From an uncultured Actinomycetes bacterium (GTDB taxonomy: Bacteria; Actinomycetota; UBA4738; HRBIN12): a stretch of DNA of 64,000 nucleotides. The notes under the pieces are model-generated. The model was not told the origin of the DNA and ran no database searches. It saw only the letters and a list, made by a program, of their open reading frames with translations. A program made the translations under genes and the position numbers. Positions 1 to 11,935 of the stretch are shown piece after piece (position 1 is the first letter of the stretch; each line of letters begins with the position of its first letter). The stretch is from positions 277,923 through 341,922 of the forward strand of contig CAVXYE010000007.1 in the NCBI GenBank assembly GCA_963765865.1, written 5' to 3'.

Positions 1-795
1 CTTGATCGCGAGGGCGATCCGAGCGACCGATTGCGCGACCAGCAGCCCGAGGATCAAGCCGACCGTCGGCCCGACCTCGCCCTCCGGCGAACCCGATCCC
101 AACGGGAGGATGACGAGGATCACGATCAACGTGACCAGCGCAGCGCTCACGATGTCGGCCCACCACGCGACCCGCCGTCGCTCGAACCGGTCGATGAACA
201 CCCCGACGAACGGCGACAGGAACGTATAGGGGATGTAGAGCGCGAGGACGACCTTGAGGAGGTAGTCCGCCGACGGCGCCACCGAGATGTCGAAGCCCTT
301 CTCGCCGCCGAACACCAACGCTTTGAAGATGGCTCCCTGGACGACACCCTGGCCGGCCTGCGCCAGGAACTGGTAGCCCATCAGGACGGAGTAGTCGCGG
401 TTCGAGAAGACCGCGAACAGGTTGTTGAAGAATCCGCCGAACGCTTCGAGCAGACGGCGCAGCCAGGCATCGCCCAGCCGGAGCGCCGCGCCGAGGCCGA
501 TCGCGACCGCGACCACGGCCCACCCCTTCCCCGTCGAGAGGGGTCCGCGCCAGATCGCGAGGGTTCCGATCCCGGCGAGCATGATGAGCACGACGGAGAG
601 CCCGGGGATCAGCGCGAACCGATCGATCGTCGACTCGAGCCCGAACCAGCGCCCGGCGAGCCAGCCGGGCACGACCAGGAGCAGCGCGAGGATCGCGATG
701 ACGAGCAGCGTGTGCGGCAGGTTGGCGAGCGGGCCCGGGTGGTTCACGAGGGACTCGACGGTGGCGTTCGCGACGGTGTTCGCCTGCGCGACCAC
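1..795 (-). CDS. MFS-type transporter, N-terminal ~265 aa (gene continues past window start)
   Basis: Not in the supplied ORF track, because its stop lies off-window. Manual reverse-strand translation of the frame with codons at 1-3, 4-6... gives a hydrophobic multi-helix protein. It carries an MFS motif-A-like loop GVFIDRFERRRV and has strongly GC-biased third positions. The start is uncertain: in-frame GTG candidates at 747, 795 and 840. Confidence 0.45.
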   Translation of the reverse strand, partial: MVAQANTVANATVESLVNHPGPLANLPHTLLVIAILALLLVVPGWLAGRWFGLESTIDRFALIPGLSVVLIMLAGIGTLAIWRGPLSTGKGWAVVAVAIGLGAALRLGDAWLRRLLEAFGGFFNNLFAVFSNRDYSVLMGYQFLAQAGQGVVQGAIFKALVFGGEKGFDISVAPSADYLLKVVLALYIPYTFLSPFVGVFIDRFERRRVAWWADIVSAALVTLIVILVILPLGSGSPEGEVGPTVGLILGLLVAQSVARIALAIK

Positions 796-874
796 GTCGG
801 GCGGCGGCGACCACAGCCCCGGCTCCTTGACGACGACCACGTCGGGACCGATCGCGACCCCGTGCGCGAGCGCG

Positions 875-2746
875 TCATCGATGCGGCTGCTGCCGCGATG
901 CCTCGGTGCAGGTCTCGACGCCGTTGCACAGCCCGCCGTAGTACTCGCGGACGATGAACACCGCCGGCGGGTATGGATAGGTCTGCTCACGCAGCTGGAG
1001 CTCTTCGAAATGGCTCTCGGCCGCTCGGTCATAGCCGATGCTCCCGTGCGTGCTGGTGGTCACCCGGTCGGCGAGGAAGTTCTCCAATGAACCGAGGTAG
1101 GTCGCCTGGTACTTCGCCGAGGAACCGGGGAGCCCCGTTCGGAAGACGTTCGTGTAGGTCTTGGCCCACCCGTACGCCGTGTTGGTATGGGTCGCGGGAT
1201 CGTCCTCGTCGTCGTCGTTCACGATCAGGACGAGCGGTCGCACGCCCGCGGCTTCGGCCACGACGTCGACGGCGGCGAGGGAGCCGCGGACGGACTCGTC
1301 GGGATACTGGTTCGCCGCGCTGACCCAGCGGTGCTGGACGCCGTCGATCAGCAGGAAGCCCAAGGAGCCGAGGACCAGCGCGGACGCAGCGGCGACGGCG
1401 ACGATCCGGCGGGTCTGGTCGCTCCGGACGAGCGCGACCCCCGCGAGGCCCGCGATCGCGGCGACGGCGGCCACACCGAACGCCCACGGAGCGATCTGCG
1501 GTTCCGTCAGCTTCGCCGCGTCCACGAGCCACGCGACCACGACGATCCCGGCGACCACCGCGAAACCCCGGAGGAGCGACCGGCGGTCCCGCTGGGTTCG
1601 CGCCCACCAGATCAGCGCGAAGGCCCCGAGACCCACGAGCGCCATCGGCGCGGCGGTGGCGTTCATGAACCGGTAGTAGGGGACGACCGGGGAGTTCGGA
1701 TCTCCGGAGACCTGGGTGCCGGCGCCGAGCACGACCGACGCGATCCCGAGCAGCGGGAACAGCCACCAGCTCGCGGTGACGTCGAAGGTATCCGCGGGGA
1801 GCCGGCGGCGTCGCGCGAGCAGGATCGTCGACCCGATCGCCAGCGCGATGAACGGCACCACGATCACGGGCTGCATCGAGCCGATCCATTCGAGCAGTCG
1901 GTCGACGAAGAACGCCTTCGTGTACGGAGGTGGGAGGGCCGCTTCCTTGAGGCTGGCCGTGGTTCCCCAGATGCCGACGACCCAGCTGGCAAGTCCCACG
2001 AACATGCCGAGCCCGACCGAGAACAGCATCGGCCCGTCGGATCGGAGGGCTTCCCCGAGACGGAACCGGCTCGTCACGAAGTGGAACCCGAACACCGCCA
2101 GGAGCGTCGCGCCGAAGAGCACGCAGGTCGTTGGGTGGGTGAACGCGGCCGCGATCCCGATCAGGAAGAGCGCGGTTCGTGCGCCCCATGACGTCCGCGC
2201 TGCGCCGAGGAACGCCAGCATCAGGCTCAACAGGAAGAGCACGGTGATGTTGTCGAGGTAGCCGACGTAGGGCGTGGTGAGGAACAGCGCCACCGTTGCG
2301 AGCAGCATCGTGAGGAAGGCGACCGGATCCTTCCGGCTCCGCGCCGCGCCGGCCCCCAACGCGAGCCCCGTCAGGATGGGCACGCCGAGCATCAGGAGCT
2401 TGGCCATCGAGTAGGTGTCGATGCCGGCGACGCGCTGCAAGAGGGCACCCTCGAGCGGAACGGTCACCCGGTAGCCGCCCGAGAACAATCCGTCCGGTCC
2501 CCAGTCCCCGACGACGGAACCCGGATCGTCCTCCATCACGACGTTCGCCCGCCACGTGTACCAAGCGGGGTCACGGGTCGGTGCCGCCAGCGACGGGTCG
2601 GCGACGAACCGCCAGCCCAACACGCTCAGCATGAGGAGGGTGGCGGCGGCGAGGACCCACCAGGATCCGAGGCGGGCCGCGGCGACCGGCGGGCGGAGCC
2701 CGCCGGTCGCCGAGGCCGGGCTCACCTGTCGGTCGGTCGAGGTCAT
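875..2746 (-). CDS. Large polytopic membrane protein, putative GT-C-fold glycosyltransferase (ArnT/PMT/DUF2029-like) with a C-terminal extracytoplasmic domain
   Basis: ORF 875..3085, trimmed to the internal ATG at 2746 (MTSTDRQ...). This removes a 113-aa R/S-rich junk extension. About 12 predicted TM helices. The first loop carries acidic EDD/DPAWY motifs typical of GT-C enzymes. A ~200-aa soluble C-terminal domain follows. Confidence 0.55.
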   Translation of the reverse strand: MTSTDRQVSPASATGGLRPPVAAARLGSWWVLAAATLLMLSVLGWRFVADPSLAAPTRDPAWYTWRANVVMEDDPGSVVGDWGPDGLFSGGYRVTVPLEGALLQRVAGIDTYSMAKLLMLGVPILTGLALGAGAARSRKDPVAFLTMLLATVALFLTTPYVGYLDNITVLFLLSLMLAFLGAARTSWGARTALFLIGIAAAFTHPTTCVLFGATLLAVFGFHFVTSRFRLGEALRSDGPMLFSVGLGMFVGLASWVVGIWGTTASLKEAALPPPYTKAFFVDRLLEWIGSMQPVIVVPFIALAIGSTILLARRRRLPADTFDVTASWWLFPLLGIASVVLGAGTQVSGDPNSPVVPYYRFMNATAAPMALVGLGAFALIWWARTQRDRRSLLRGFAVVAGIVVVAWLVDAAKLTEPQIAPWAFGVAAVAAIAGLAGVALVRSDQTRRIVAVAAASALVLGSLGFLLIDGVQHRWVSAANQYPDESVRGSLAAVDVVAEAAGVRPLVLIVNDDDEDDPATHTNTAYGWAKTYTNVFRTGLPGSSAKYQATYLGSLENFLADRVTTSTHGSIGYDRAAESHFEELQLREQTYPYPPAVFIVREYYGGLCNGVETCTEASRQQPHR

Positions 2747-2840
2747 GGGTTCTCCGGTCGGGACTCTGCGCACGCCCACGGGCGGCGGGACGCCGACCGC
2801 GGGCGAGTGTACAGCCCGACCTCTCGCGTCACGCCTTCGC

Positions 2841-3647
2841 TCAGTCCTTCCAGGGATCGACGGCGGGCCGGGGCCGGCGAGACGGAGGCGGAGGCGGCGG
2901 TCGTCGTCGGAGGAACCAGACCGCCCCGAGCAGGACCAGCGCCGCGAGGATCGCGACGACGATCGAGCCGTTGCGCGTGCCGGTCGAACGAGACGGAGGC
3001 GCGGTCGCGCCGACCGGCGACTGACCGACCGCGAAGAACCCGAGGCGGCCGACCGCCGCGTGCACGGACTGTTGGGCGATCGCATCGTCGCTCTGGATCG
3101 CGGACCACGACCGCTCGTCCGTGGACCGGAGGATCGTGTCCGTGAACCCCACGCCCTGGAAGAGCAGCGGGTACACGAGCCCGAGCTCCCCCCGGGTGCG
3201 GAGATCGCCCACGGACGCGCCGCTCGGCTCGTACGTCGCCGTCACCCCGATCACGTTGCCGGCGATCTGCACGCCGGCGGGAAGGGTCGCGTCGGGCTTC
3301 GGGGCGAGGGGGGTCATGACGAGCTGCACCTGGGTGTCCTGCCCGTGGGGGGCGATGGCACCCTGCCCCAGCGCGAGGCTCGCCTGGAAATCCCGGGTCG
3401 AGAACACGGTGGCTGCCGACCCCTTGGTGGGGTCCAGCGCGATCATCGAACGGCCGGCACTGGGGGGTTTGTTCGTCGAGGCGAGCGCGGGGGGAGGGGC
3501 CACCCACCGGTACAGCGGCGGCGGCGCCAGCCCGTCGAGGATGGGACGACGCGACGCGGGCCCCAGCGAACCACTCACCACCGCGCCGACGAGGTAGGCG
3601 AGACACAGCGCCGCGCCGGCGACGGCGGCACGCCGGCGCGCGCTCAC
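2841..3647 (-). CDS. Hypothetical bitopic membrane protein (N-terminal signal-anchor, central soluble domain, C-terminal TM helix, Pro-rich tail)
   Basis: Protein-like part of ORF 2841..3911. The GTG start at 3647 forms a GTGA overlap with the stop of the upstream SBP gene (3644-3646). Shows N-terminal AAVAGAALCLAYLVGAVVSG, C-terminal IVVAILAALVLLGAVWFL, then RRRPPPPPPSRRPRP. Confidence 0.5.
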   Translation of the reverse strand: MSARRRAAVAGAALCLAYLVGAVVSGSLGPASRRPILDGLAPPPLYRWVAPPPALASTNKPPSAGRSMIALDPTKGSAATVFSTRDFQASLALGQGAIAPHGQDTQVQLVMTPLAPKPDATLPAGVQIAGNVIGVTATYEPSGASVGDLRTRGELGLVYPLLFQGVGFTDTILRSTDERSWSAIQSDDAIAQQSVHAAVGRLGFFAVGQSPVGATAPPSRSTGTRNGSIVVAILAALVLLGAVWFLRRRPPPPPPSRRPRPAVDPWKD

Positions 3648-4891
3648 GGCTCGATCCGGATCGCGGCGATCGGTGCGGTCGCGAACCGCTGCGGCCACAC
3701 CACCGCCCGCACCCCGGGGCGAACCCATTCCCAGATCACGCTCATCGCTCGGAGGTTGGCGCCGGGGTCCGGGGACCCCGGCGGCGCGAACGCGAGACCG
3801 CTGCCGTTCGGGAGCTCGCCGATCGGCACCCGCATCCGGAGCGCCGCGGCGGCGGCGGCCTCGGGTGTCATCTGATCCGCGGCGGGAAGCACCATGTGGA
3901 ACAGCGCCCACGCCGCGGAGAACCCGGCGAGTGCCGCCGCGCTCATCTCCTGGTGGTAGCGGCCCTCGTACGCGGTTGACGCGCGGTCGAGCAGCACCCG
4001 ACCCGAAGGGGTCAGACCCGCCGGATCGACGTATTCGCTGTCGAGCTTGTCGGAGGAGAACAGCCCGACCGCCTCGCGGCCGAGCGCCGCACCGAACGCC
4101 GGCATGCAGTAGCTCGACGACGTCCCGATGTTGGTGATGAGCCGCAGCCCCTGCCGCACCATCTCCCGGCGGAGCGCGATCCCGTCGCGGACGTACGCCG
4201 AGACGAACAGGACGTCGGGGTGCACCCTCGCGATCCGCCGGATGACCGCGCGGGCATCCAAGTGGGCCGCGTCATAGACGAAGCGGCCGACGAAGGGCAG
4301 CCCCAGCGATCTGATGCGGGCGATCGCGCCGTCGGCGACGGCGCTCCCGTACACGTCGTCCACGTTCGCCACGGCGAACCGCAACGAACGGGGGGATCGG
4401 CGGAGCATCGGGAGCAGCTGCCGATCCACGAACGAGATCGCATCGCTCCCGAGCAGTTCCCCGCTCGGCGCAACCCGGAAGAACAGCTTGCCGCCGCTGG
4501 AGGGGGACGAGGACCCGACCGCGCCCGTCTCCCAGAACAGGACGTCTCGCCGGGCGGCCTCCGCGGCGGCCGGTTGCGAGATCGTGCTCCCGTAGCTCCC
4601 GAGGATGAAGCGGATCCCTTGATCGGCGAGGTTGTCCACGGCGCCCGGGGCGGCATCGCCACCGGCGACATCCAACGGAGCGAGCTCGATCGGTCGCCCG
4701 CCGATCCCCCCGTCGGCGTTCACCAGATCGGTCGCGAGCGAGACACCGCGGAACTCGTCCCGTCCCCCGGGGCCTTGGGAACCACTGAGGGGGTAGATCG
4801 CACCGACCCGGATCGGCTCCGGGCCCCTCGAGCACGAGACGCCGCCGGCGAGCAGCGAGGAGACCGCCAGTACCGCGAGCGCCCTTCTCAT
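3644..4891 (-). CDS. Leu/Ile/Val-binding-protein family (type I periplasmic binding fold) solute-binding lipoprotein; orphan, with no cognate permease or ATPase nearby
   Basis: ORF 3644..5203, trimmed to the ATG at 4891 (MRRALAVLAVSSLLAGGVSCS...). Signal peptide ends at a Cys (lipobox-like). GAIYPLSG... matches Peripla_BP_6 / LivJ-like proteins. ATGA overlap with the upstream CPBP gene. Confidence 0.75.
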   Translation of the reverse strand: MRRALAVLAVSSLLAGGVSCSRGPEPIRVGAIYPLSGSQGPGGRDEFRGVSLATDLVNADGGIGGRPIELAPLDVAGGDAAPGAVDNLADQGIRFILGSYGSTISQPAAAEAARRDVLFWETGAVGSSSPSSGGKLFFRVAPSGELLGSDAISFVDRQLLPMLRRSPRSLRFAVANVDDVYGSAVADGAIARIRSLGLPFVGRFVYDAAHLDARAVIRRIARVHPDVLFVSAYVRDGIALRREMVRQGLRLITNIGTSSSYCMPAFGAALGREAVGLFSSDKLDSEYVDPAGLTPSGRVLLDRASTAYEGRYHQEMSAAALAGFSAAWALFHMVLPAADQMTPEAAAAAALRMRVPIGELPNGSGLAFAPPGSPDPGANLRAMSVIWEWVRPGVRAVVWPQRFATAPIAAIRIEP

Positions 4892-5466
4892 CGGAGGACG
4901 GCGACGAGGTTCGCAACGACGTGCGTCGTCGCGGGCGCGCCCCACCCCCCCGATGCCCATCGCTGCCACGACAACAGGAGCCCGGCTCCGAGGTCGACCC
5001 AGAAGACCGCCGGACCGTAGATCGGAACGTGGAGCGCCGCGAACAGGAGCGCGGACCCGCCGATCGCGATCGCCGCCCCGAACCGCACGAGCCCGCCGTA
5101 GACGAGCCGCCGGAAGAACAGCTCCTCCGACACGGCGGCGAGCGAGTTGAGCAGCAGGACCTCCGGGCCGTGCGGGACGGGGAAGCCGGGGCCGACGAGC
5201 CACGCCGCGAAGGCGATCGCGGCCACCCCCGTTGCCGTGACGATGAAGGGCGAGAGCGATGATGCATCACCCCGCGTGACCGTGGCCGCCAGCGAGGCCG
5301 AGCCCAGCACCACGTACAGCGCGGCGAACACGCCCACGGTCACGGGGAGACCGATGAACGAGGTGCGGACGAGCAGCAACGCCGAGCCGGCGATCACCGC
5401 GAGGACCATCGCCAGGTCGGCGTCGGTCGCTCGCGACCGACGCGCGTGGACCGACACCGCGATCAA
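4888..5466 (-). CDS. CPBP family intramembrane metalloprotease (CAAX protease / Abi domain)
   Basis: Shows the EELFFRRLVYGG and FAALH motifs in a polytopic membrane protein. TTG start at 5466 overlaps the stop of the lipoprotein gene (TTGA). An alternative ATG lies at 5409. Confidence 0.7.
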   Translation of the reverse strand: MIAVSVHARRSRATDADLAMVLAVIAGSALLLVRTSFIGLPVTVGVFAALYVVLGSASLAATVTRGDASSLSPFIVTATGVAAIAFAAWLVGPGFPVPHGPEVLLLNSLAAVSEELFFRRLVYGGLVRFGAAIAIGGSALLFAALHVPIYGPAVFWVDLGAGLLLSWQRWASGGWGAPATTHVVANLVAVLR

Positions 5467-5879
5467 TGCTTCACCTCGAACGCGACCTGGGCGATGACGC
5501 GCGGGTCGAACGGAAGGTGGTCGGAGGCGACGAACTCCACGCGCAACACGTGCAGGCCGGGTTGGACGGCCGTGAGCTTGGCGCTGGTGGAGAAGTTCAT
5601 CGATTCGATCTGATCGTCGAGGTACAGATGGAGATGCCCTTGATCGGGCGTGATGTTGGTGGTCGTCACCGGGACGATCGTGGCGTTCTCCAGCCGGACC
5701 TTCACGTCGACGACCGATCCGTGGACCACCTCACCGTCGGTCGGCGTCACGATCTGGACCTTGGCAGGACTGCTCGGCCTGGCGCCCGGGAGGGAGTCCG
5801 AGGCGCTGGTCGCCGACGAGCACGCGGCGCAGAGCACGAAGAGCACCAGCCACCCGACGACCGGTCGACGATCAGCCAC
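5463..5879 (-). CDS. Secreted (lipo)protein with a beta-sandwich-like domain; His-rich HLHLYLDD motif, possible metal binding
   Basis: Protein-like C-terminal 138 aa of ORF 5463..6032. Signal peptide RRPVVGWLVLFVLCAACSS. Putative GTG start at 5879, overlapping the Fur stop by 8 nt. The start is uncertain. Confidence 0.5.
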   Translation of the reverse strand: MADRRPVVGWLVLFVLCAACSSATSASDSLPGARPSSPAKVQIVTPTDGEVVHGSVVDVKVRLENATIVPVTTTNITPDQGHLHLYLDDQIESMNFSTSAKLTAVQPGLHVLRVEFVASDHLPFDPRVIAQVAFEVKH

Positions 5880-6336
5880 GGAGCGTATCGGCCCCCACCT
5901 CCGCGGCGCAATCGGCGCAGAGCCCGAGCAGGTCCAACCGGTGGGAGACTCGAGCGAACCCCGCACGCTTCGCGATCCGGTCGAGCGTTCGTTCGAGCGT
6001 TCGCTCGAGCTCCTCGGGAACGTCCACATCACGCATCTTGCCGCATCGCGAACAGACGAGGTGGTGGTGGTGGCCGATCAGGTCCTCGGCCAGCTCGTAC
6101 CGCCCGAACTCCTCATCCGTCACCAGCCGGCGCACCACCCCGGCCTGCTCGAGCGCGGCGAGGTTCCGGTAGACCGAGCTCTGTTTGAGACCGGAGCCGC
6201 CCGCGAGGATGTCCGGGATCGACACGGGGCTCCCCGCGTCGGCGAGCAGCTCGATCAATCGCCGACGTTGCGTCGTGTACCGCTGGCCGGCTGACCGGAG
6301 CCTCGCCGTCGCGGTCGCGTCGAGGTCGAAGCTCAT
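5872..6336 (-). CDS. Fur family transcriptional regulator (Fur/Zur/PerR-like)
   Basis: 154 aa. HTH-like N-terminus, HHHHLVCSRCGK...CADC with two CxxC pairs. ATG at 6336 with a strong SD (GGAGAGGAAcacggATG). ATGA overlap with the upstream GT4 stop. Confidence 0.85.
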   Translation of the reverse strand: MSFDLDATATARLRSAGQRYTTQRRRLIELLADAGSPVSIPDILAGGSGLKQSSVYRNLAALEQAGVVRRLVTDEEFGRYELAEDLIGHHHHLVCSRCGKMRDVDVPEELERTLERTLDRIAKRAGFARVSHRLDLLGLCADCAAEVGADTLRG

Positions 6337-7595
6337 CCGTGTTCCTCTCCGCGGAGCTCGAACAACGCCTCCGGGTACCGGACGCCGAGGCCGCGAGCTG
6401 CGTGCCGCGGGCCGAGGCCCGCGGGACGCAGCCCGCGCGCCCACCGCGCGATCGCGTTCCGGACGGGATCGGCGCGGAGCGCGACCAGGTCGTCGATCGC
6501 CTCCAGGTACACCGCAGCGGTCGTCGCGGGCGCCAGCGCATCGCGCGCGTACGCCCCCGCACGGTCGCCGATCGCCGCTCGACCCTGCGGGTCGCCGGCG
6601 AGTCGATCGATGACGTCCGCGAGCTCTTCCGGATCGGGCCGTCCCGGCCCGATCCGGACCACGACGTCGTCGGGGACCTCGAGGTACGTGCCGACGCCGC
6701 TCACGATCGTGGGCGTTCCCACCTGGAGGGCTCGCACGAGCGAGCCGCTGGACTCGCCCCGGTGCGGATACCGGAGGTTGACCAGGATGTCGAAGGCGCT
6801 CAGCCACGCGAGGAACTCGTCGTCGGCGACATCCGCGAAGACACGTACCCGCCCCCCGACGCCGGCGTCGCGGATCGCGGCGTCGACGTCCCACCCACCT
6901 CGTCGTCCGACGAGGACGAGCCGGACGGTCGAACGGACGTGTGCGAGCGCTTCGAGGAGCTGCGGGATCCCCTTCGTGGCGTTGAGGTCGCCCGCGACCC
7001 CGACCACGACCTCATCGGGACCTGCCACGCCGGCACGAAGCTCGTGCCCGCGGACCCGAGCACGCTCGATGTCCGCTTCCCGCTCAACGGTGGGGTGCGG
7101 CGCCACGAGGACGGGCGTCAGGCATCCGACCCGGTCGAGGTAGCTCTTCGCGAAGCCCGAATGGACGATGACGGCACGTGCGCGTCGAACGAGTTGCGCG
7201 CACCAAGGGACCCCGAGCGGATCGTCGTGATCCGCTCCCCTCGGCGTCGCGGCGATCGCTTCCTGGCGCGCGGGCGCGGCGAGCGGGCTCCTCACCTCGC
7301 CGAGGCCCCAGATCAGACCGTCGACCGCGAGGTCGTGGAGCACCACCACCCCCGGATGCCAGACCGACAGTGCGTAGATGTCGCCGTGGAACTCCACGTT
7401 GTTGCCGATCTGGTAGATGCCGACGTCGGCTGCGCGGACGCGCGCGCCGGCGTCGGGTTCGAACGGCGACACCGGATCGATCATGTGTCCGGACGCCGCG
7501 TCGATGTGGTCGAGCCCCTCGAGGACGGACGCCGCGTACGTCGCGATCCCGGTCTTCGCCGGAGGGAGCGGCGAGACGAACGCGACCGTCGCCAT
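6333..7595 (-). CDS. Glycosyltransferase family 4 (GT-B, Glycos_transf_1)
   Basis: 420 aa. C-terminal Glycos_transf_1 signature (RGESSGSLVRALQVGTPTIVSGVGTYLEV). 1-bp TGATG overlap with the upstream GT4. Confidence 0.8.
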   Translation of the reverse strand: MATVAFVSPLPPAKTGIATYAASVLEGLDHIDAASGHMIDPVSPFEPDAGARVRAADVGIYQIGNNVEFHGDIYALSVWHPGVVVLHDLAVDGLIWGLGEVRSPLAAPARQEAIAATPRGADHDDPLGVPWCAQLVRRARAVIVHSGFAKSYLDRVGCLTPVLVAPHPTVEREADIERARVRGHELRAGVAGPDEVVVGVAGDLNATKGIPQLLEALAHVRSTVRLVLVGRRGGWDVDAAIRDAGVGGRVRVFADVADDEFLAWLSAFDILVNLRYPHRGESSGSLVRALQVGTPTIVSGVGTYLEVPDDVVVRIGPGRPDPEELADVIDRLAGDPQGRAAIGDRAGAYARDALAPATTAAVYLEAIDDLVALRADPVRNAIARWARGLRPAGLGPRHAARGLGVRYPEALFELRGEEHG

Positions 7596-8647
7596 CAGCC
7601 GAGGAGACGGCGGACGACGCCGGGCCAGTCGGGCATCTTCTCGGCGACGAACGTTCGGCCGGCCGCGCCCAGACGTTCCCCTCGCGCGCGATCGTGGAAG
7701 AGCTCGTCGAACGCCGCCGCGATCTGCTCGGGCTCCGGCTCCACGATGACCCCGGTCTCCTCGTTCCGAGCGAACTCGAGCGGGCCACCGGAGTCCGTGG
7801 TCACGATGACGGGCCGGCCCGCGGCCATCGCCTCGATCGTCACGTAGCCGTAGTCCTCCTCATAGGGACCGAAGTAGACGCCCAGCGCGTCGCGATAGAG
7901 CTCGATCAACTCGTCGTCCGATACGCCGACGCGGATCTCGACGCGATCGGCCAGCCGCGCGTCCGCGATGCGCGTCCGGATCTTCTCGAGCTCGGTTCCC
8001 GACCCGACGAGCAACAACCGGACGTCCGACCGCACGTGCTGCATCGCATCGACGGCAAGCGCCTGCCGTTTCAGGGGGTCGAATCGGCTGGGGAACAGGA
8101 GGTAATCGCCTCCACCGTCACCGGGATCACGAGCCAACAGACGCTCGGTGAGATCGGAGCGATGGTAGAGGACCTCGCCGCGCACCCCGAGGGATCGCTC
8201 GAGCCGGCCCTTCACGTTCTCGGAATTCGTGAAGATCCGTTCGGCCTCCCCGAACGCGAGACGGTCGGAGGCGACCACCAGATCCCGGATCGCCGATCCG
8301 TCGGGAGCTTTGGAGAGATCGCCGAAGCCCGGATGACCCCACAGCTCATAGGCCGTGCGTTGCTGGTGGATGAGCCAGATGATCTTGCGCGGATGGTTGA
8401 CCAGGTATGCGGGAAACTTCATCGCGACGACGAGGTCGATGGACATCCCGTTGGCTTCGCGCAGATCGAGGCTCCGCCAGAGCCCCATCTGGTGCACCAG
8501 CTCCGAGGGTGGTGCCCACTGGAACGGGATCGTGGCGATCTCGGCCTCGTGACCGGCCTCGCGCAAGGCGCGGATCAATCCGTTGGCGTGCGTTTCGGCG
8601 CCGCCGGACATGAACGGGGGCTGGGGATGGCACACGAGGATCCGCAT
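7595..8647 (-). CDS. Glycosyltransferase family 4 (GT-B)
   Basis: 350 aa. EDYGYVTIEAMAAGRPVIVT...GG..E signature. 1-bp overlap with the upstream methyltransferase stop. Confidence 0.8.
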   Translation of the reverse strand: MRILVCHPQPPFMSGGAETHANGLIRALREAGHEAEIATIPFQWAPPSELVHQMGLWRSLDLREANGMSIDLVVAMKFPAYLVNHPRKIIWLIHQQRTAYELWGHPGFGDLSKAPDGSAIRDLVVASDRLAFGEAERIFTNSENVKGRLERSLGVRGEVLYHRSDLTERLLARDPGDGGGDYLLFPSRFDPLKRQALAVDAMQHVRSDVRLLLVGSGTELEKIRTRIADARLADRVEIRVGVSDDELIELYRDALGVYFGPYEEDYGYVTIEAMAAGRPVIVTTDSGGPLEFARNEETGVIVEPEPEQIAAAFDELFHDRARGERLGAAGRTFVAEKMPDWPGVVRRLLG

Positions 8648-9876
8648 CAGGGCTTCCTCGCGATCAGGGCGTAGTCCTGGGGTCGTTCGTCCTCGTCGGC
8701 GTTCATCAAACGAACCTCGGCCGAATCGAAGCCGGCGAAGCCGGCCATCACGCGGAGCGTCTCGGGGTTCGCGGGCCAGGTGTGGGTGATGTCACCGAAG
8801 AACCATCTGGCGAGCGCATCCACGTTCAGAGGGTAGATGGTCTCCACGACCAGGGCCCCGCCCGGGGCGAGCGCTCGTTGCGCATATTGCAGGAGCGGGA
8901 GCCAGGACGCCGGCGGAAGGTGTTCGACGACCTGGATCGCGCTCATCGCCGCCGGAGCCTCTCCCTCGTACGTGAGCAGGAAGTCGGGCAACGTCCCTTC
9001 GACGGCATCGATGCCACGCTCCTCGCACGTCGCGACGGCCTGCGCCGAGATATCCATGCCGAGCACCCGCCAGCCCCATCCCTGGAGCAGCGCGAGGAAC
9101 TGGCCCTCCCCGCATCCCAGATCGAGCCACAGCGGCGTACCTCCGTGTTGCGTCCGCAGCTGATCGGCGAGATCCCGATACTGGAGCAGCTTCTGCTCGA
9201 TCGACTCCTGCGAGCCGCGGAGCGCGGCTTCGAACCTCCAGTAGAACGCGTCCGGCAGGGCGGCCTCGGGATGGGGGGCCGGTGCCGCCGCGGCTGCCGG
9301 CGTGGATGCGGGCGCCGAACCGGTCACGCCGCCCGCCGACGCGAGCCGTCGGGACAACGCTTCGAGCTCTGAAGCCGCCGATCCGATCCGAACATCGTGT
9401 TCGTGGGCGACGGTCTGCGATGCCCGTAACGCCGTTCGGACCTCGTCCCACGCCGCCTCGGCCCGGCGAAGATCGGACCGGAGTTCCTGGAGCTCCGACG
9501 TGAGGCCGGCGATCTCCTGGCGGGCCGCCTCGAGCTCCCGGGACGTCTCGAGTCCGAGCAGCGCCAGGTCGGCGCCGATCCGGTCGTACCGGCGCATCAA
9601 CGGACGGAGCAACCGGAAGGTGAGCCGCTTGATCCTCCGCTTCAGCGGGCGACCCATCTGGAGGATCTGATCGTCCGGGAGCGGTCGGGAAGCGTGATCG
9701 CGACGAAGCGTCGCCTCCAGCTCCCCCCAGCGGATCGCGAGGTCCGACGTTCCGTCGGCCGATCGGGATCCCGGCGACGAACCGGACACGGGTGGCGCCG
9801 CCCAGTACAGCTCGCGGGCGAGTGAATCGGCGGCGGTCTCCTCCGTCGTCGACGTCCGTGCCTCGTCGCCCGTCAC
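8647..9876 (-). CDS. Class I SAM-dependent methyltransferase with an N-terminal coiled-coil region (WbdD-like architecture)
   Basis: Motif I LDLGCGEGQF and C-terminal Rossmann fold. About 150 aa of heptad-like LE/AR-rich sequence before the MT domain. GTG start at 9876, 4 nt after the mutY stop. Confidence 0.65.
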   Translation of the reverse strand: MTGDEARTSTTEETAADSLARELYWAAPPVSGSSPGSRSADGTSDLAIRWGELEATLRRDHASRPLPDDQILQMGRPLKRRIKRLTFRLLRPLMRRYDRIGADLALLGLETSRELEAARQEIAGLTSELQELRSDLRRAEAAWDEVRTALRASQTVAHEHDVRIGSAASELEALSRRLASAGGVTGSAPASTPAAAAAPAPHPEAALPDAFYWRFEAALRGSQESIEQKLLQYRDLADQLRTQHGGTPLWLDLGCGEGQFLALLQGWGWRVLGMDISAQAVATCEERGIDAVEGTLPDFLLTYEGEAPAAMSAIQVVEHLPPASWLPLLQYAQRALAPGGALVVETIYPLNVDALARWFFGDITHTWPANPETLRVMAGFAGFDSAEVRLMNADEDERPQDYALIARKP

Positions 9877-9880
9877 GAGC

Positions 9881-10834
9881 TCATCCCTCCGGTCGGGTGG
9901 CGGCCGAAAGGCTAAACGAATCGGAAGACCGACCGGGTTCGCGGTTCGAACGCTCCGACGGGTGGTTCACGGGAAGGCGGAACGAGCGGCCACGCCGCTC
10001 GACGATCCCGTCGCGGACGAGTCCGGTGACCGCCGACCCGACGCGATCGGCTCCGAACCCCGTCGCCGCGGCCAAGCCCAAGAGACCTGCCGACGGCCGC
10101 TCACGCAACACCGCCACGATCCGCCCGCGGACCTGACGGTTCGATCCCTCGAAGGGCGACTGCTTGGGGGCGACGGCCGACCTCCCGGGCCTGCCGGCGC
10201 TGCGGAACCGGCACCACGGCTCGAGCGGACACACATCGCATCGAGGCGTCGGGCGGCACACCTCGCGCCCGAGGTCCATCATCGCCTGGTTCCAGGTCGC
10301 GGGGTCACGCCGATCGAGCAGGACCCGAGCGGCCGCCGCGATCCGAGGACCGTCACGTTCCTCCGGCTCGCGACCGAGCACGACACGCGACGCTACCCGA
10401 CGAACGTTGACGTCCATCGCGACGACCGGCCGGCCGAACGCGATCGCTGCGACGGCCGACGCGGTATAGGGACCGACCCCCGGGAGCTGCTGGAGCGCTC
10501 CCGGATCGTCCGGCACCTCTCCACCGTGGACCCGGACGATGGTTCGAGCGGCCTCCTGCAGGGCGACGGCACGCCGGTGATACCCGAGCCCGGACCATGC
10601 GCGGAGCACGTCGGCCGGCGCCGCGGCCGCGAGGCTCGATACGTTCGGGAACCGCCGGAGGAACCGATCGAAGGCCGCAGCGACGCGGGCGGCCTGCGTC
10701 TGCTGCAGCATCACCTCGCTGACGAGGACCGCGTAGGGACCGATCCCGTCCCGGCGCCAGGGGTACCCCTCGCGCCGCGGGCGATACCAGGCGCGCAGCG
10801 CTCGTCGAAGGGGGCTAGGCTCAAGAGCGGTCAT
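9881..10834 (-). CDS. mutY: A/G-specific adenine DNA glycosylase (MutY; HhH-GPD superfamily with 4Fe-4S loop)
   Basis: ORF 9881..11065, trimmed to the ATG at 10834 by alignment to the MutY N-terminus (LRAWY..PWR..PY.VLVSEVMLQQTQ). Shows HhH motif LPGVGPYTA and CRPTPRCDVCPLEPWC. Confidence 0.8.
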   Translation of the reverse strand: MTALEPSPLRRALRAWYRPRREGYPWRRDGIGPYAVLVSEVMLQQTQAARVAAAFDRFLRRFPNVSSLAAAAPADVLRAWSGLGYHRRAVALQEAARTIVRVHGGEVPDDPGALQQLPGVGPYTASAVAAIAFGRPVVAMDVNVRRVASRVVLGREPEERDGPRIAAAARVLLDRRDPATWNQAMMDLGREVCRPTPRCDVCPLEPWCRFRSAGRPGRSAVAPKQSPFEGSNRQVRGRIVAVLRERPSAGLLGLAAATGFGADRVGSAVTGLVRDGIVERRGRSFRLPVNHPSERSNREPGRSSDSFSLSAATRPEG

Positions 10835-11195
10835 GCCGGCCATCCGCGAGCTCATGAGCATCGATCTCATCTCGGTCCCGCCCACGGCGACCGTCGCCGA
10901 GGCCGCCCAGGTGATGAGCCTCCAGCACGTCGGCGCTGCCCTCGTGATCGACGGTGAGGACCTGGTCGGCATCTTCACGGAGCGGGACATCGTGCGGGCG
11001 CTTGCCGCGGAGCACGACGCGGCAACCCATGAGGTCGGGGAGTGGATGACCAAGGACCCGGTCACCTTGGACGCCGACGCGTCCGCTCAGGAAACGCTCG
11101 CGCTGATGCTGGCCAAGGGGTTCCGTCATGTCCCCGTGACGGAGACCGGGCTGCTCGTCGGCATCGTGTCGATGCGTGATCTCTCCATCCGATGA
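10833..11195 (+). CDS. CBS domain pair protein
   Basis: 120 aa. Two CBS repeats (ELMSIDLISV...GIFTERDIVRAL; EWMTKDPVTL...GIVSMRDL). ATG at 10833 overlaps the divergent mutY ATG. Confidence 0.7.
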   Translation: MPAIRELMSIDLISVPPTATVAEAAQVMSLQHVGAALVIDGEDLVGIFTERDIVRALAAEHDAATHEVGEWMTKDPVTLDADASAQETLALMLAKGFRHVPVTETGLLVGIVSMRDLSIR

Positions 11196-11229
11196 CGGGC
11201 GGCTCCGTTGCCGGCCCGTGACGCCGTTG

Positions 11230-11412
11230 CTAGAAGCCGGCCCGAGACTCGGAGTTGATCATGGCTGTGACGACCTCTTGGAGCGCCGCGTGGACGGCGC
11301 GGAAGATGTCCGCCACCTGGTCCGGCGTCGCCGTCGCGGCCGAGCCTCTGGCCGCCATCGCCGTGATGTCGCATGCCTTGTCGAACACGTGCCAGTCGCT
11401 CTCGCGGGACAT
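11230..11412 (-). CDS. Small hypothetical protein (60 aa)
   Basis: Strong RBS (GAGGAGGAAcatccgATG). About 90% GC at third positions. The antisense ORF 11255..11470(+) is compositionally poor. Confidence 0.5.
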   Translation of the reverse strand: MSRESDWHVFDKACDITAMAARGSAATATPDQVADIFRAVHAALQEVVTAMINSESRAGF

Positions 11413-11513
11413 CGGATGTTCCTCCTCGTGGTTCCGCTCGTGGATGGGAGATCCTCGCCACCCAGGCTAGCCGAAGAGCATGGACATCGAAGTCGAGGAC
11501 CTCGAACGATGTC

Positions 11514-11536
11514 GGAACCGCCTTCGGCCGTTCGTC
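11514..11536 (+). promoter_or_regulatory. Candidate ECF-type promoter (GGAAC-N14-CGTC) upstream of the yciI-like/sigma operon
   Basis: GGAACcgccttcggccgttCGTCaa lies about 50 nt upstream of the ATG at 11588. The spacing is slightly short of the canonical 16-17 nt. Confidence 0.25.
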
Positions 11537-11587
11537 AACTAGGGTGAACGGGCGGCATCAGGCCGGCCTCGGCCCAGGAGGGTGTGC

Positions 11588-11935
11588 ATGAAGTATGCGT
11601 TGTTGATCTACGCGGACGAGAAGGCGTGGGCGTCGGTCCCACACGATGAGCAGCACGCGATCTACGAGGAGTACGACAAGTTCGCGAACGAGCTCGTCGA
11701 GCGCGGCGTGATGCGCGGCGGCGACCAGCTCGCGGACAGCCCGGCCGCCACCACCGTCCGCGTGCGGGACGGCCAGCAGCTCGTCACCGATGGTCCGTTC
11801 GCGGAGACGAAGGAGCAGCTCGGCGGCTACTTCCTGGTTGAGGTCGACGACCTCGACACCGCGATCGAGCTCGCGGGCAAGCTCCCGGGGGCGCGGCACG
11901 GCTCCGTGGAGGTGCGCCCCATCATCGAGGGATGA
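11588..11935 (+). CDS. YciI-like (YCII-related/DGPF domain) protein
   Basis: MKYALLIY...DGPFAETKEQLGGYFLVEVDDLDTAIELAGKLP. ATG at 11588 with SD AGGAGGG. ATGA overlap with the sigma gene. Confidence 0.8.
   Translation: MKYALLIYADEKAWASVPHDEQHAIYEEYDKFANELVERGVMRGGDQLADSPAATTVRVRDGQQLVTDGPFAETKEQLGGYFLVEVDDLDTAIELAGKLPGARHGSVEVRPIIEG

What the first reader, a model, noticed from the sequence alone, without database searches (positions are those of the whole stretch)
1..10834. Eleven co-directional genes with 1-4 bp start/stop overlaps form an envelope glycoconjugate operon with an embedded Fur-family regulator
The junctions, read from the sequence, are: mutY to methyltransferase, 4-nt gap; MT to GT4, TGATG; GT4 to GT4, TGATG; GT4 to fur, ATGA; fur to lipoprotein, 8-nt overlap (uncertain); lipoprotein to CPBP, TTGA; CPBP to SBP, ATGA; SBP to bitopic protein, GTGA. 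Then come a 94-nt and a roughly 80-130-nt gap before the GT-C-like membrane protein and the MFS transporter. Coupling this tight implies stoichiometric co-expression of a methyl-capping enzyme, two GT-B transferases, a GT-C-like polytopic transferase, an exporter candidate (MFS), an orphan LivJ-like binding protein, an intramembrane CPBP protease and a metalloregulator. I do not recognise this combination as a described system. It could be a metal-responsive lipoglycan or polysaccharide pathway with a built-in sensing/proteolysis module.
Basis: partly seen in the sequence, partly recalled or inferred. Interest (0 to 1): 0.7.

Follow-up and report, generated by a model that had tools for sequence, protein, structure and literature searches.

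The report
Mosaic gene string, not one operon
The tightly packed run of same-strand genes is real, but comparison with about 80 related soil actinobacterial genomes shows a patchwork of five separately inherited modules (DNA repair, a sugar-chain cassette, an orphaned zinc regulator, a metal-linked envelope module, and a fused glycosyltransferase-transporter with its own promoter), not one new glycoconjugate system.

Summary
The genes, their order and the junction strings are correct; all lie on the minus strand, read from 10834 down to 1. Three corrections apply.

- **Gene count.** The 'GT-C-like' and 'MFS' genes are one ~1224-aa gene, split here by one extra C at 885. That makes ten genes, not eleven.
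- **mutY–MT gap.** The 4-nt gap exists because mutY has a 33-codon read-through tail. The tail covers a conserved -10-like element of the MT cassette.
- **Background.** Overlapping junctions are common in this genome (9 of 35 elsewhere in the window).

- Of 55 related loci with enough flank, MT-GT4-GT4 is present in 5 and lipoprotein-CPBP-SBP-bitopic in 4.
- mutY (42), fur (46) and the GT-C::MFS gene (all) form the backbone.
- Elsewhere the GT4 pair sits in Wzm/Wzt polysaccharide clusters.
- fur is the last gene of a znuACB-zur operon.
- The four-gene envelope module follows CopCD.
- The fusion gene keeps its own -10-like element in 57 of 76 loci.

The most novel items are the unclassified GT-C::MFS fusion and the four-gene module.

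The parts
9881..10834 (-). Module A: MutY-like HhH-GPD DNA glycosylase. The last 33 codons (about 9881-9979) are a clade-specific read-through tail.
   Evidence: PF00730 6.7e-18; TIGR01084 8.4e-63, below the curated cut-off. Present in 42 of 55 related loci as a backbone gene, diverging from the CBS gene. Relatives end at ...RSFRLP-like residues.
9909..9916 (-). TTTAGCCT: a -10-like TAGCCT element ahead of the MT cassette, lying inside the mutY tail.
   Evidence: The same element is present upstream of the MT start (about 30-45 nt in most, directly before the called start in L005) in L009, L005, L007, L063, L046 and L084, whatever the upstream gene is. Function as a promoter is inferred.
8647..9876 (-). 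Module B1: class I SAM methyltransferase with an N-terminal coiled-coil-like region.
   Evidence: Methyltransf_23/25/11. 39% identical to the MT of a Wzm/Wzt cluster in L086. Its N-terminus matches the 133/134-aa protein that precedes the GT4 pair there.
7595..8647 (-). Module B2: GT4 glycosyltransferase (GT4a).
   Evidence: Glycos_transf_1 2.6e-28. Best solved relatives are WbaZ-1 mannosyltransferase 2f9f and PimB.
6333..7595 (-). Module B3: GT4 glycosyltransferase (GT4b).
   Evidence: Glyco_trans_1_4 and Glycos_transf_1. Homologues of 47-48% identity sit next to a GT4a homologue inside Wzm/Wzt_C polysaccharide clusters.
5872..6336 (-). Module C: Fur-family regulator, most likely Zur, orphaned from znuACB.
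   Evidence: PF01475 4.5e-18. Best solved relatives are M. tuberculosis Zur 2o03 and S. coelicolor Zur 3mwm. HHHH89-92, CSRC95 and CADC140 are present. In relatives it is the fourth gene of ZnuA/ABC_tran/ABC-3/fur with 4-nt overlaps.
5463..5879 (-). Module D1: secreted or lipoprotein, weak DUF4399/DUF6130 match, with an HLH motif.
   Evidence: DUF6130 9.8e-6, DUF4399 8.2e-6. 49-54% identical homologues head the same four-gene module in L082 and L083.
4888..5466 (-). Module D2: CPBP (Rce1-like) intramembrane protease.
   Evidence: PF02517 1.5e-11. Motifs EELFFR114, FAALH142 and HVVAN182 are present.
3644..4891 (-). Module D3: orphan type I (LivJ-like) solute-binding protein with a signal peptide.
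   Evidence: Peripla_BP_6 9.6e-30. 63-68% identical in L082 and L083. No ABC permease is adjacent in any context seen.
2841..3647 (-). Module D4: bitopic membrane protein (TM, beta-sandwich, TM, Pro/Arg-rich tail).
   Evidence: No Pfam hit. The family is small, 61 clusters. The AF2 model has pLDDT 84.6. The beta-sandwich resembles ZU5 and GAIN domains (E 4e-6 to 1e-3, TM about 0.6 on the target).
2806..2812 (-). GTACACT: conserved -10-like element about 60 nt upstream of the fusion gene.
   Evidence: [GC]TA[CT][ACG]CT occurs in 57 of 76 loci against 0.7 expected, whatever gene lies upstream.
1..2746 (-). Module E: a single GT-C::MFS fusion gene (about 1224 aa). It is interrupted in this assembly by a 1-nt insertion and runs off the window start.
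   Evidence: GT-C fold. MFS part: PF07690 and TIGR00900 3.1e-20. Three linker helices make the topology consistent.
885..885 (-). Extra C (CAGCAGCCGCATCG against CAGCAGCGCATCG) that breaks the fusion ORF.
   Evidence: Alignment to L001. The restored frame reads ...QQRIDDALAHGV, matching the family consensus QQxLDxAxAxGV.
10852..10872 (-). Zur-box-like palindrome AGATGAGATCGATGCTCATGA, at the mutY/CBS head of the string. Status unresolved.
   Evidence: The position weight matrix built from 17 relatives' znuA-upstream boxes scores it 18.8 bits. That is the best site in the 64 kb (next 10.7; true sites 22-38). It is present only in the clade lacking znuACB.
10833..11195 (+). Boundary: divergent CBS-pair gene whose start abuts or overlaps the mutY start.
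   Evidence: PF00571 on the L001 gene call. A conserved GGCTAGGCT (-10-like TAGGCT) for this gene lies inside the mutY 5' end at 10813-10822.

Best explanation
The string is a compacted mosaic of five modules that are inherited independently. It is not a dedicated glycoconjugate system.

- **(A) mutY.** A housekeeping base-excision glycosylase and a backbone gene.
- **(B) MT-GT4a-GT4b.** A movable cassette with its own -10-like element. In other Actinomycetota its homologues are the chain-building and methyl-terminating part of an ABC-transporter-dependent (Wzm/Wzt) cell-wall polysaccharide pathway. Here it most likely does that cytoplasmic job for a pathway whose exporter lies elsewhere in the genome.
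- **(C) The Fur-family gene.** It is Zur-like. In most relatives it is the last gene of a znuA-znuC-znuB-zur operon behind a Zur-box promoter. In the window's clade znuACB has been lost, so zur now abuts GT4b.
- **(D) Lipoprotein-CPBP-orphan SBP-bitopic protein.** A conserved four-gene extracytoplasmic module. It travels with metal-homeostasis genes: behind zur here and in L007, behind CopC-CopD elsewhere. It probably acts in metal-related envelope sensing or processing.
- **(E) 'GT-C' plus 'MFS'.** One fused protein with its own conserved promoter-like element, followed by an alpha/beta-hydrolase and an EamA transporter. This is the unit that is really conserved.

The likely transcription units are mutY, then MT through the bitopic gene (by read-through after the znuACB deletion), then GT-C::MFS and its downstream genes.

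Shown: gene content, synteny, folds and conserved motifs. Inferred: promoter activity, co-transcription, substrates.
For: **Synteny in 55 species-level loci with at least 9 kb upstream**
- mutY 42, fur 46, MT/GT4a/GT4b 5, lipoprotein/CPBP/SBP/bitopic 4.
- All nine together only in L005, L007 and L009.
- Downstream: alpha/beta-hydrolase 52 of 57, EamA 50 of 57.

**Cassette B**
- It sits on the other side of mutY in L046 and L084.
- It lies inside Wzm + Wzt_C + GDP-mannose pyrophosphorylase clusters in L085 and L086, joined by an LCP ligase in L085 and a GDP-mannose dehydratase-type epimerase in L086.
- None of those partners is in the 64-kb window.
- A TAGCCT element is conserved ahead of MT in seven contexts.

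**zur**
- ZnuA/ABC_tran/ABC-3 lie directly upstream with 4-nt overlaps in relatives.
- A conserved palindrome ATGAGAGCGATTCTCA lies upstream of znuA.
- The best solved relatives are Zur proteins.
- fur lies directly upstream of the fusion gene in 8 loci that lack module D.

**Module D**
- The same four genes, in the same order, occur at 42-68% identity behind CopC-CopD in L082 and L083, with no GT or fur nearby.

**Module E**
- A single ORF in L001, in more than 120 clusters and in 80 loci.
- A -10-like element in 57 of 76 loci against 0.7 expected, independent of the upstream gene.

**Genome background**
- 9 of 35 other junctions in the window overlap.
Against: - In the window's own clade (window, L005, L009, and L007 with znuACB still present) all nine genes stay together, co-directional and overlapping, across 73-88% protein identity. 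A clade-specific co-regulated unit cannot be excluded.
- There are no transcript data. The promoter elements are inferred from conservation only, and the sigma-70 scan found nothing.
- Only 64 kb of the genome is visible. Absence of Wzm/Wzt applies to the window, not to the genome.
- A Zur-box-like site, the best in the window, sits at the head of the string, and only in the clade that lost znuACB. That could mean string-wide Zur control.
- Relatives carry envelope genes next to the fusion gene: an alkaline-phosphatase-superfamily protein upstream and GT87 downstream in L012.
Confidence: 0.75

Rival explanations
1. All ten or eleven genes form one metal-responsive lipoglycan or polysaccharide pathway. 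Cytoplasmic GT4s and the MT build a lipid-linked glycan, the MFS exports it, the GT-C extends it outside, and Fur, the SBP and the CPBP protease sense and regulate it.
For: - The genes are tightly packed and co-directional.
- The families are correct, and the GT-C fold is confirmed.
- The nine upstream genes co-occur in L005, L007 and L009.
- A possible Zur box lies at the head of the string.
Against: - Co-occurrence is restricted to one shallow clade, 3 of 55 loci.
- Each module has different conserved partners elsewhere.
- The GT4 cassette changes position relative to mutY.
- Conserved internal promoter-like elements are present.
- The mutY coupling is a read-through artefact.
- fur adjacency is explained by loss of znuACB.
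Confidence: 0.07
2. A clade-specific neo-operon with real regulatory coupling. After znuACB was lost, MT-GT4-GT4-zur-module D became one transcript. Cell-wall glycan genes, Zur and the envelope module are then co-expressed, possibly under Zur control through the palindrome at 10852-10872.
For: - There is no intergenic space from MT to the bitopic gene.
- The arrangement is conserved in the window, L005 and L009.
- The palindrome is the top Zur-matrix hit in the window and occurs only in this clade.
- In L007, zur and module D are contiguous with the Zur-box-controlled znuACB.
Against: - The palindrome scores below every true box (18.8 against 22-38 bits).
- Half of it is conserved CBS coding sequence (ATGAGC = Met-Ser).
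- No -35/-10 pair is visible upstream of it.
- It lies upstream of mutY, while the MT cassette has its own -10-like element downstream of it.
- Co-transcription created by a deletion can be neutral.
Confidence: 0.2
3. There is a functional link between the GT4 cassette and GT-C::MFS only. Together they make a lipoglycan (cytoplasmic mannosylation, MFS flipping, GT-C extension). mutY, zur and module D are bystanders.
For: - No Wzm/Wzt is visible in the window, so the cassette has no visible exporter.
- The GT4a relatives are mannosyltransferases, including PimB.
- The MFS part weakly resembles the LplT domain of lysophospholipid transporter-acyltransferase fusions.
Against: - The fusion gene is present in all 80 loci, but the cassette is in only 5 of 55.
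- Cassette homologues sit with Wzm/Wzt and not with GT-C or MFS genes.
- The promoter-like elements are separate.
Confidence: 0.08

Closest known systems
GT-C fold glycosyltransferases (ArnT, AglB/PglB/STT3, AftA/AftB/EmbB, PMTs, ALG mannosyltransferases)
   Same: - A polytopic N-terminal module plus an extracytoplasmic alpha/beta domain.
- An invariant Asp (D59 in PTRDPAWYTWR) lies just after TM1.
   Different: - It matches no Pfam or NCBIfam GT-C family.
- Sequence identity to solved enzymes is 9-15%.
- The family is small: 229 representatives among 1.84 billion proteins.
- In this clade it is fused C-terminally, through three helices, to a full MFS transporter.
- Donor, acceptor and activity are unknown.
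MFS lipid flippases and transporter-enzyme fusions (LtaA; LplT and LplT-Aas) - from general knowledge, plus weak NCBIfam hits
   Same: - The C-terminal ~440 aa are MFS (PF07690; TIGR00900 3.1e-20).
- There are weak hits to the MFS (LplT) part of acyl-ACP-phospholipid O-acyltransferase fusions.
- A transporter fused to an envelope-lipid enzyme has a precedent in LplT-Aas.
   Different: - The hits are far below the family cut-offs, so no membership is shown.
- The fused enzyme here is a GT-C, not an acyltransferase.
- Two full-text searches found no description of a GT-C/MFS fusion.
ABC-transporter-dependent O-polysaccharide/cell-wall glycan pathways with a terminating methyltransferase (E. coli O8/O9a WbdA-C, WbdD, Wzm/Wzt type) - general knowledge,
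   Same: - Homologues of MT, a 133-aa protein, GT4a and GT4b lie in clusters with ABC2_membrane (Wzm), ABC_tran+Wzt_C and GDP-mannose pyrophosphorylase, plus a GDP-sugar dehydratase/epimerase in L086 and an LCP ligase in L085.
- The MT carries a coiled-coil-like region.
   Different: - In the window the trio is detached from any Wzm/Wzt, sugar-nucleotide or LCP gene.
- The domain order differs from WbdD.
- No biochemical data exist.
znuACB-zur operons of Actinobacteria (M. tuberculosis FurB/Zur, S. coelicolor Zur)
   Same: - The best solved relatives are Zur 2o03 and 3mwm/7vo0.
- HHHH plus two CxxC motifs are present.
- Orthologues in relatives close a ZnuA/ZnuC/ZnuB operon preceded by a palindrome like a Zur box.
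   Different: - The window has no ZnuA or ZnuB anywhere in 64 kb.
- The Cys of the regulatory site in the M. tuberculosis and S. coelicolor proteins is not aligned to a Cys here (alignment).
- Metal specificity (Zn or Mn) is not established.
CPBP/Rce1-like intramembrane proteases, and ZU5/GAIN beta-sandwich domains
   Same: - The CPBP protein has all three family motifs and a Pfam hit above the cut-off.
- The bitopic protein's ectodomain superposes on ZU5 (ankyrin, UNC5b) and GAIN (BAI3) domains.
   Different: - No substrate is known.
- The bitopic family has no invariant His in its alignment. From general knowledge, autoproteolytic ZU5/GAIN domains cleave at a His-containing site, so self-cleavage of that kind is unlikely here.
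- The pairing with an orphan LivJ-like SBP and a DUF4399-like lipoprotein is not a described system, to my knowledge.

Membership tests
   All nine upstream genes occur together in 3 of 55 loci. MT/GT4/GT4 is in 5 of 55 and module D in 4 of 55.
   A conserved TAGCCT lies ahead of MT in 7 contexts. [GC]TA[CT][ACG]CT lies ahead of the fusion gene in 57 of 76 loci against 0.7 expected. This is conservation evidence only; activity was not measured.
GT-C glycosyltransferase superfamily (N-terminal 623 aa) | GT-C fold: polytopic helical core plus extracytoplasmic domain | tested here: met
GT-C glycosyltransferase superfamily (N-terminal 623 aa) | Conserved acidic residue in the first extracytoplasmic loop | tested here: inconclusive
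   An invariant D59 in PTRDPAWYTWR follows TM1 (H29-49) directly. Structural equivalence to catalytic Asp residues of solved enzymes was not checked.
GT-C glycosyltransferase superfamily (N-terminal 623 aa) | Sequence membership in a curated GT-C family (GT39, GT83, GT87, etc.) | tested here: not met
   No Pfam or NCBIfam hit at E <= 0.01.
GT-C glycosyltransferase superfamily (N-terminal 623 aa) | Transfer from a polyprenyl-phosphate sugar donor | not testable with these tools
   Needs biochemistry.
Major facilitator superfamily (C-terminal part) | MFS_1 profile match | tested here: met
   PF07690 is precomputed for all homologues. TIGR00900 3.1e-20 over residues 790-1150.
GT4 / GT-B glycosyltransferases (GT4a, GT4b) | Glycos_transf_1 C-terminal domain above the Pfam cut-off | tested here: met
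   99.1 bits for GT4a and 39.8 bits for GT4b, against a cut-off of 26.4. The N-terminal Glyco_transf_4 domain is below its cut-off in GT4a and absent in GT4b.
Wzm/Wzt (ABC-transporter-dependent) glycan pathway, for MT-GT4-GT4 | Wzm permease and Wzt ATPase with a Wzt_C domain in the locus | tested here: not met
   Both lie next to cassette homologues in L085 and L086. No homologue is in the 64-kb window. The rest of the genome is unseen.
Fur family / Zur | FUR domain with a structural CxxC...CxxC site | tested here: met
   PF01475 66 bits. CSRC95, CADC140 and HHHH89-92 are present.
Fur family / Zur | Association with a zinc-uptake operon and a Zur box | tested here: inconclusive
   Met in relatives: ZnuA/ABC/ABC-3 upstream and a conserved palindrome. 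In the window there are no znu genes and only a sub-threshold box at 10852-10872.
CPBP (Rce1-like) intramembrane protease | Motifs EExxxR, FxxxH and HxxxN/D, plus the Pfam profile | tested here: met
   EELFFR114, FAALH142 and HVVAN182. PF02517 44.9 bits against a cut-off of 22.4.
Type I (LivJ-like) ABC solute-binding protein | Peripla_BP_6 profile | tested here: met
   104.8 bits against a cut-off of 31.7.
Type I (LivJ-like) ABC solute-binding protein | Cognate ABC permease and ATPase genes adjacent | tested here: not met
   None is adjacent in the window, L001, L082 or L083. It is an orphan in every context seen.
MutY | HhH-GPD domain, Fe-S Cys cluster, equivalog score | tested here: inconclusive
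   HhH-GPD 65.4 bits. TIGR01084 scores 212.5 bits, below the 286.5 cut-off, and covers only 2-216 of 277 profile positions. The four Cys have C-x5-C-x2-C-x5-C spacing (sequence). No NUDIX-type C-terminal domain was detected.

The most novel reading that the evidence does not exclude
The GT-C::MFS protein may be a self-contained 'flip-and-transfer' machine. It has 1131-1251 aa (all but one of the 120 listed homologue clusters) and is found in at least 254 species-level genomes of uncultured soil Actinomycetota. It has its own promoter-like element and is followed by an alpha/beta-hydrolase and an EamA transporter.

In this reading, the MFS half moves a lipid-linked sugar donor or a glycolipid acceptor across the membrane. 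The GT-C half, which belongs to a family with no curated model, uses it on the outer face.

Separately, the lipoprotein-CPBP-orphan SBP-ZU5-like bitopic module may be an undescribed metal-linked envelope signalling or processing system.
Probability: 0.3. Interest if true: 0.65.

Novelty: new variant of a known kind. Interest (0 to 1): 0.38.

Why it matters
- **Method.** In compact high-GC genomes, start/stop overlaps and co-directionality do not show shared function. Here a deletion (znuACB) and a lost stop codon (mutY) created 'coupled' junctions between unrelated genes.
- **Biology.** The analysis isolates two conserved, unstudied units in abundant uncultured soil Actinomycetota.
  - The first is an unclassified GT-C glycosyltransferase permanently fused to an MFS transporter. 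It could show how some lipid-linked substrates reach GT-C enzymes, which remains unclear for many envelope pathways.
  - The second is a four-gene extracytoplasmic module that travels with zinc and copper homeostasis genes.
- **Limit.** Neither unit is a new principle yet. Both can be tested.

Tried and rejected
- **Plus-strand reading.** The long plus-strand ORFs in 1-10834 have the wrong codon-position GC pattern and were rejected.
- **Rfam** on 1-12000 at E <= 1: no hits.
- **tRNA scan** of the window: none.
- **Sigma-70 promoter and intrinsic terminator scan:** 0 promoters and 1 terminator-like site inside MT, below the shuffle expectation. It is uninformative for this high-GC actinobacterium.
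- **tblastn of the window** for Wzm, Wzt_C, GDP-mannose pyrophosphorylase, LCP, ZnuA, ZnuB, ArsP_1, DUF1980, Phosphodiest, GT87 and CopCD: only generic ABC ATPase hits at 58.7-60.5 kb.
- **Literature** searches for a GT-C/MFS fusion and for DUF4399 found nothing relevant.
- **P0177** (a distant bitopic homologue) sits at a contig edge and gave no usable context.
- **AFDB fold library** was unavailable.
- **Deletion scar.** I considered that the GT4b 3' end is a chimera with the znuB 3' end. The zur Shine-Dalgarno and start context in the window (GGAGAGGAACACGGATGAGC) closely matches the znuB-zur junction of L007. However, L005 and L009 differ there, and L046 has a similar native GT4b C-terminus. 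It is kept only as a suggestion.
- **Zur box at 10852-10872.** It was considered as proof of metal control and not accepted, because half of it is conserved coding sequence and it scores below the true boxes.

Full report
**Anatomy**

The window is about 70% GC. Codon-position GC shows that the real genes in 1-10834 are on the minus strand.

The gene coordinates are:

| Gene | Coordinates (minus strand) |
|---|---|
| mutY-like | 9881-10834 |
| methyltransferase (MT) | 8647-9876 |
| GT4a | 7595-8647 |
| GT4b | 6333-7595 |
| fur | 5872-6336 |
| lipoprotein | 5463-5879 |
| CPBP | 4888-5466 |
| SBP | 3644-4891 |
| bitopic protein | 2841-3647 |
| 'GT-C-like' | 875-2746 |
| 'MFS' | 1 to about 840 |

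Pfam and NCBIfam confirm the family calls. The exceptions are the bitopic and GT-C-like proteins, which hit nothing.

A divergent CBS-pair gene (10833-11195, plus strand) abuts the mutY start.

**Source and sequence quality**

A 702-kb ENA soil-metagenome contig (ERZ25039561 contig_4872; L001) is 98.9% identical to the window over 17.6 kb, with four indels.

- One indel is an extra C in the window at 885. Without it, 'GT-C-like' and 'MFS' are a single 1224-aa ORF.
- The fused form is found in more than 120 protein clusters, all but one 1131-1251 aa long (55-96% identity, usually near-full coverage).
- It is also found in 80 species-level genomic loci, of 254 detected, all from uncultured Actinomycetota MAGs.
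- Deleting base 885 gives an open 915-codon frame to the window edge. The restored sequence matches the family consensus.

So there are ten genes.

The reverse holds for two other indels. L001 has indels at window 5072 and 4864 that destroy CPBP and truncate SBP there. The window versions are intact and match distant homologues end to end.

**Is the packing special?**

A simple codon-usage gene call for the whole window gives these figures for the 35 co-directional junctions outside the cluster:

- 9 overlap by 1-4 nt.
- 17 are at most 10 nt.
- The median gap is 11 nt.

The run of seven consecutive overlapping junctions (MT through bitopic) is the longest in the window. It is unlikely by chance at that background rate, so the packing is real. 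In this genome, however, overlaps are the normal state of adjacent genes.

**Synteny**

I anchored on the fusion protein, fetched 80 loci with 10-kb flanks, and located homologues of every window gene by tblastn.

Among the 55 loci with at least 9 kb upstream:

| Gene(s) | Loci with a homologue |
|---|---|
| mutY | 42 |
| fur | 46 |
| MT, GT4a, GT4b | 5 |
| lipoprotein, CPBP, SBP, bitopic | 4 |

- All nine upstream genes co-occur only in L005, L007 and L009, the closest relatives.
- Downstream of the fusion gene, an alpha/beta-hydrolase (52 of 57), an EamA transporter (50 of 57) and an AlaX-like gene (50 of 57) are conserved. The gaps are 3-10 nt and -4 nt.

The conserved backbone is therefore:

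MBOAT/sigma/YCII/CBS (opposite strand) | mutY ... fur ... GT-C::MFS, hydrolase, EamA

The other genes are variable inserts.

**Module C: the Fur-family gene**

- In L007 and L013, confirmed by Pfam, fur is preceded by ZnuA, an ABC ATPase and an ABC-3 permease. The same gene sizes occur in L063, L019, L012, L023, L040 and others. All are joined by 4-nt overlaps.
- A palindrome ATGAGAGCGATTCTCA, preceded by TTGAC-type -35 boxes, is conserved upstream of znuA in 17 relatives (those used for the matrix).
- The closest solved proteins are M. tuberculosis and S. coelicolor Zur.
- The protein has HHHH and two CxxC motifs.

The 'embedded metalloregulator' is therefore a Zur-like gene left behind when znuACB was lost in the window/L005/L009 clade. 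No znuA or znuB is in the window. The ATGA junction between GT4b and zur replaces the ATGA/GTGA junction between znuB and zur seen in relatives.

**Module B: MT-GT4a-GT4b**

- In L046 and L084 the cassette lies on the other side of mutY, between YCII and CBS.
- At 47-48% identity (L085, L086), the GT4a-GT4b pair lies inside clusters with:
  - Wzm (ABC2_membrane),
  - Wzt (ABC_tran + Wzt_C),
  - GDP-mannose pyrophosphorylase,
  - and, in one locus each, a GDP-sugar dehydratase/epimerase and a GT2 (L086) or an LCP ligase (L085).
- There the pair is preceded by a 133/134-aa protein, and in L086 also by a homologous MT.
- The window MT aligns to the L086 MT. Its N-terminus aligns to the small protein.
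- GT4a's best solved relatives are mannosyltransferases.

A -10-like TAGCCT is conserved upstream of the MT start in seven contexts, about 30-45 nt away in most, whatever gene lies upstream. In the window and L009 the mutY ORF reads through this element. That adds 33 codons after the conserved ...RSFRLP end, and it is the only reason for the '4-nt gap'.

**Module D: lipoprotein-CPBP-SBP-bitopic**

- The bitopic protein family is small, with 61 clusters.
- Members at 43% and 52% identity (L082, L083) sit in the same four-gene order. Their homologues are 49-54% (lipoprotein), 54-60% (CPBP) and 63-68% (SBP) identical.
- In both cases the module lies directly downstream of a CopC-CopD fusion protein, with no GT, fur or MFS nearby.
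- In L007 the module follows zur in a string headed by a Zur-box promoter.
- In relatives at about 75% identity (L006, L063) and in six more distant ones, fur lies directly upstream of the fusion gene and the module is absent.

So this is an independent, conserved extracytoplasmic module that travels with metal-homeostasis genes.

- The CPBP protein has all three catalytic motifs.
- The SBP is an orphan in every context seen.
- An AlphaFold model of the bitopic protein (pLDDT 84.6) shows TM, beta-sandwich, TM. The sandwich resembles ZU5 and GAIN domains.
- No invariant His is present in the family alignment. From general knowledge, autoproteolytic ZU5/GAIN domains cleave at a His-containing site.

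A ligand-sensing or proteolytic signalling role is a reasonable guess, but nothing more.

**Module E: GT-C::MFS**

- The AlphaFold model of the N-terminal 623 aa has pLDDT 79 and pTM 0.82.
- Its top matches are exclusively GT-C enzymes:
  - Foldseek: ArnT E 1.5e-5, PglB, STT3, EmbB, AftA.
- An invariant Asp lies in PTRDPAWYTWR just after TM1.
- The family has no curated model. Only 229 representatives exist among 1.84 billion proteins. They include MFS-fused forms (about 1120-1212 aa) and stand-alone forms (about 640-740 aa).
- Three hydrophobic helices link the extracytoplasmic domain to MFS TM1, which makes the topology consistent.
- The MFS half matches TIGR00900, and weakly the LplT part of lysophospholipid transporter-acyltransferase fusions.
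- A -10-like element (GTACACT in the window at 2806-2812; GTATCCT in more distant relatives) lies about 60 nt upstream of the start in 57 of 76 loci, against 0.7 expected. It is there whether the upstream gene is the bitopic gene, zur, or an alkaline-phosphatase-superfamily gene.

**Conclusion**

Most family calls hold and the GT-C guess is confirmed by fold; the Fur-family gene is more specifically Zur-like, and GT-C and MFS are one protein.

- absence of conserved synteny;
- internal promoter-like elements.

The best model is a compacted mosaic with three probable transcription units: mutY; MT through the bitopic gene, by read-through after the znuACB deletion; and GT-C::MFS with its downstream genes.

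These uncertainties remain:

- There are no transcript data.
- The clade-specific arrangement could still be co-regulated.
- A Zur-box-like palindrome at 10852-10872 is the best matrix hit in the window (18.8 bits; next best 10.7; true boxes 22-38). It is found only in the clade lacking znuACB. Half of it is conserved CBS coding sequence.

**Novelty**

Every module belongs to a known kind. Two items are new variants worth following up: the unclassified GT-C family fused to an MFS transporter, and the four-gene module with a ZU5-like bitopic protein. Two full-text searches found no description of a GT-C/MFS fusion.

Noticed in passing
window 10852-10872 (minus strand); also L001 6724, L005 2150, L009 1843: The palindrome AGATGAGATCGATGCTCATGA resembles the Zur box found upstream of znuA in relatives. 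It is the only site above 12 bits in these loci and occurs only in the clade that lost znuACB. It lies inside the CBS 5' coding region, 18-38 nt upstream of the mutY ATG. It could be a relocated Zur operator, or a coincidence helped by conserved Met-Ser codons.
   Followed up: partly
window 885, 4864, 5072, 11445 against L001: The window and the ENA contig (98.9% identical) each carry frameshifting indels in different genes. The window breaks GT-C::MFS. L001 breaks CPBP and truncates SBP. This looks like long-read consensus error or very recent mutation, and gene calls from either assembly alone are misleading.
   Followed up: partly
window 10813-10822 (minus-strand GAGCCTAGCC; plus-strand GGCTAGGCTC): This is a strongly conserved DNA element inside the 5' end of mutY in nearly all relatives. 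On the other strand it reads TAGGCT, 11 nt before the CBS ATG in the window and at a variable distance in relatives. It is probably the -10 of a short-leader or leaderless CBS transcript, so the two divergent genes have interleaved control regions.
   Followed up: partly
window 9881-9979 (minus strand): mutY carries a 33-codon C-terminal extension. It is shared with L009 and absent in L005, L007 and L063. The cause is loss of the ancestral stop. The tail runs across the MT cassette's -10-like element.
   Followed up: yes
L012, L013, L019, L042, L046, L060, directly upstream of the fusion gene; L012 13701-14831: In more distant relatives, the gene just upstream of GT-C::MFS is a 536-679-aa Phosphodiest/Sulfatase (alkaline-phosphatase superfamily) protein. 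L012 has a GT87 gene just downstream. A minus-strand trio (DUF1980_C, ArsP_1 permease, a 450-aa unknown) lies between fur and that gene in L013. This gives an envelope and metal-related context for the fusion gene.
   Followed up: partly
window 11230-11412 (minus strand); equivalent 59-77-aa ORFs in L005, L009, L012, L013, L019, L023, L036, L040, L046, L084: A small ORF of about 60 aa is conserved in position between YCII and CBS across many relatives. It has no family hit on record.
   Followed up: no
L008 3305-6352: In one relative, znuABC is inverted and paired with an ArsR-family regulator instead of fur. Module D still follows, after a 551-nt gap. The regulator at this spot has been replaced.
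   Followed up: no
L083 8381-8698: A second DUF4399-like lipoprotein copy follows the bitopic gene in the CopCD-linked version of module D.
   Followed up: no
window 6333-6360 against L007 znuB-zur junction: The last ~20 nt before the zur start in the window (GGAGAGGAACACGGATGAGC) nearly match the znuB 3' end/zur start in L007 (AGGAGGAACACGCATGAGC). This hints that the deletion kept zur's translation-initiation region. L005 and L009 differ there, so it is only suggestive.
   Followed up: partly
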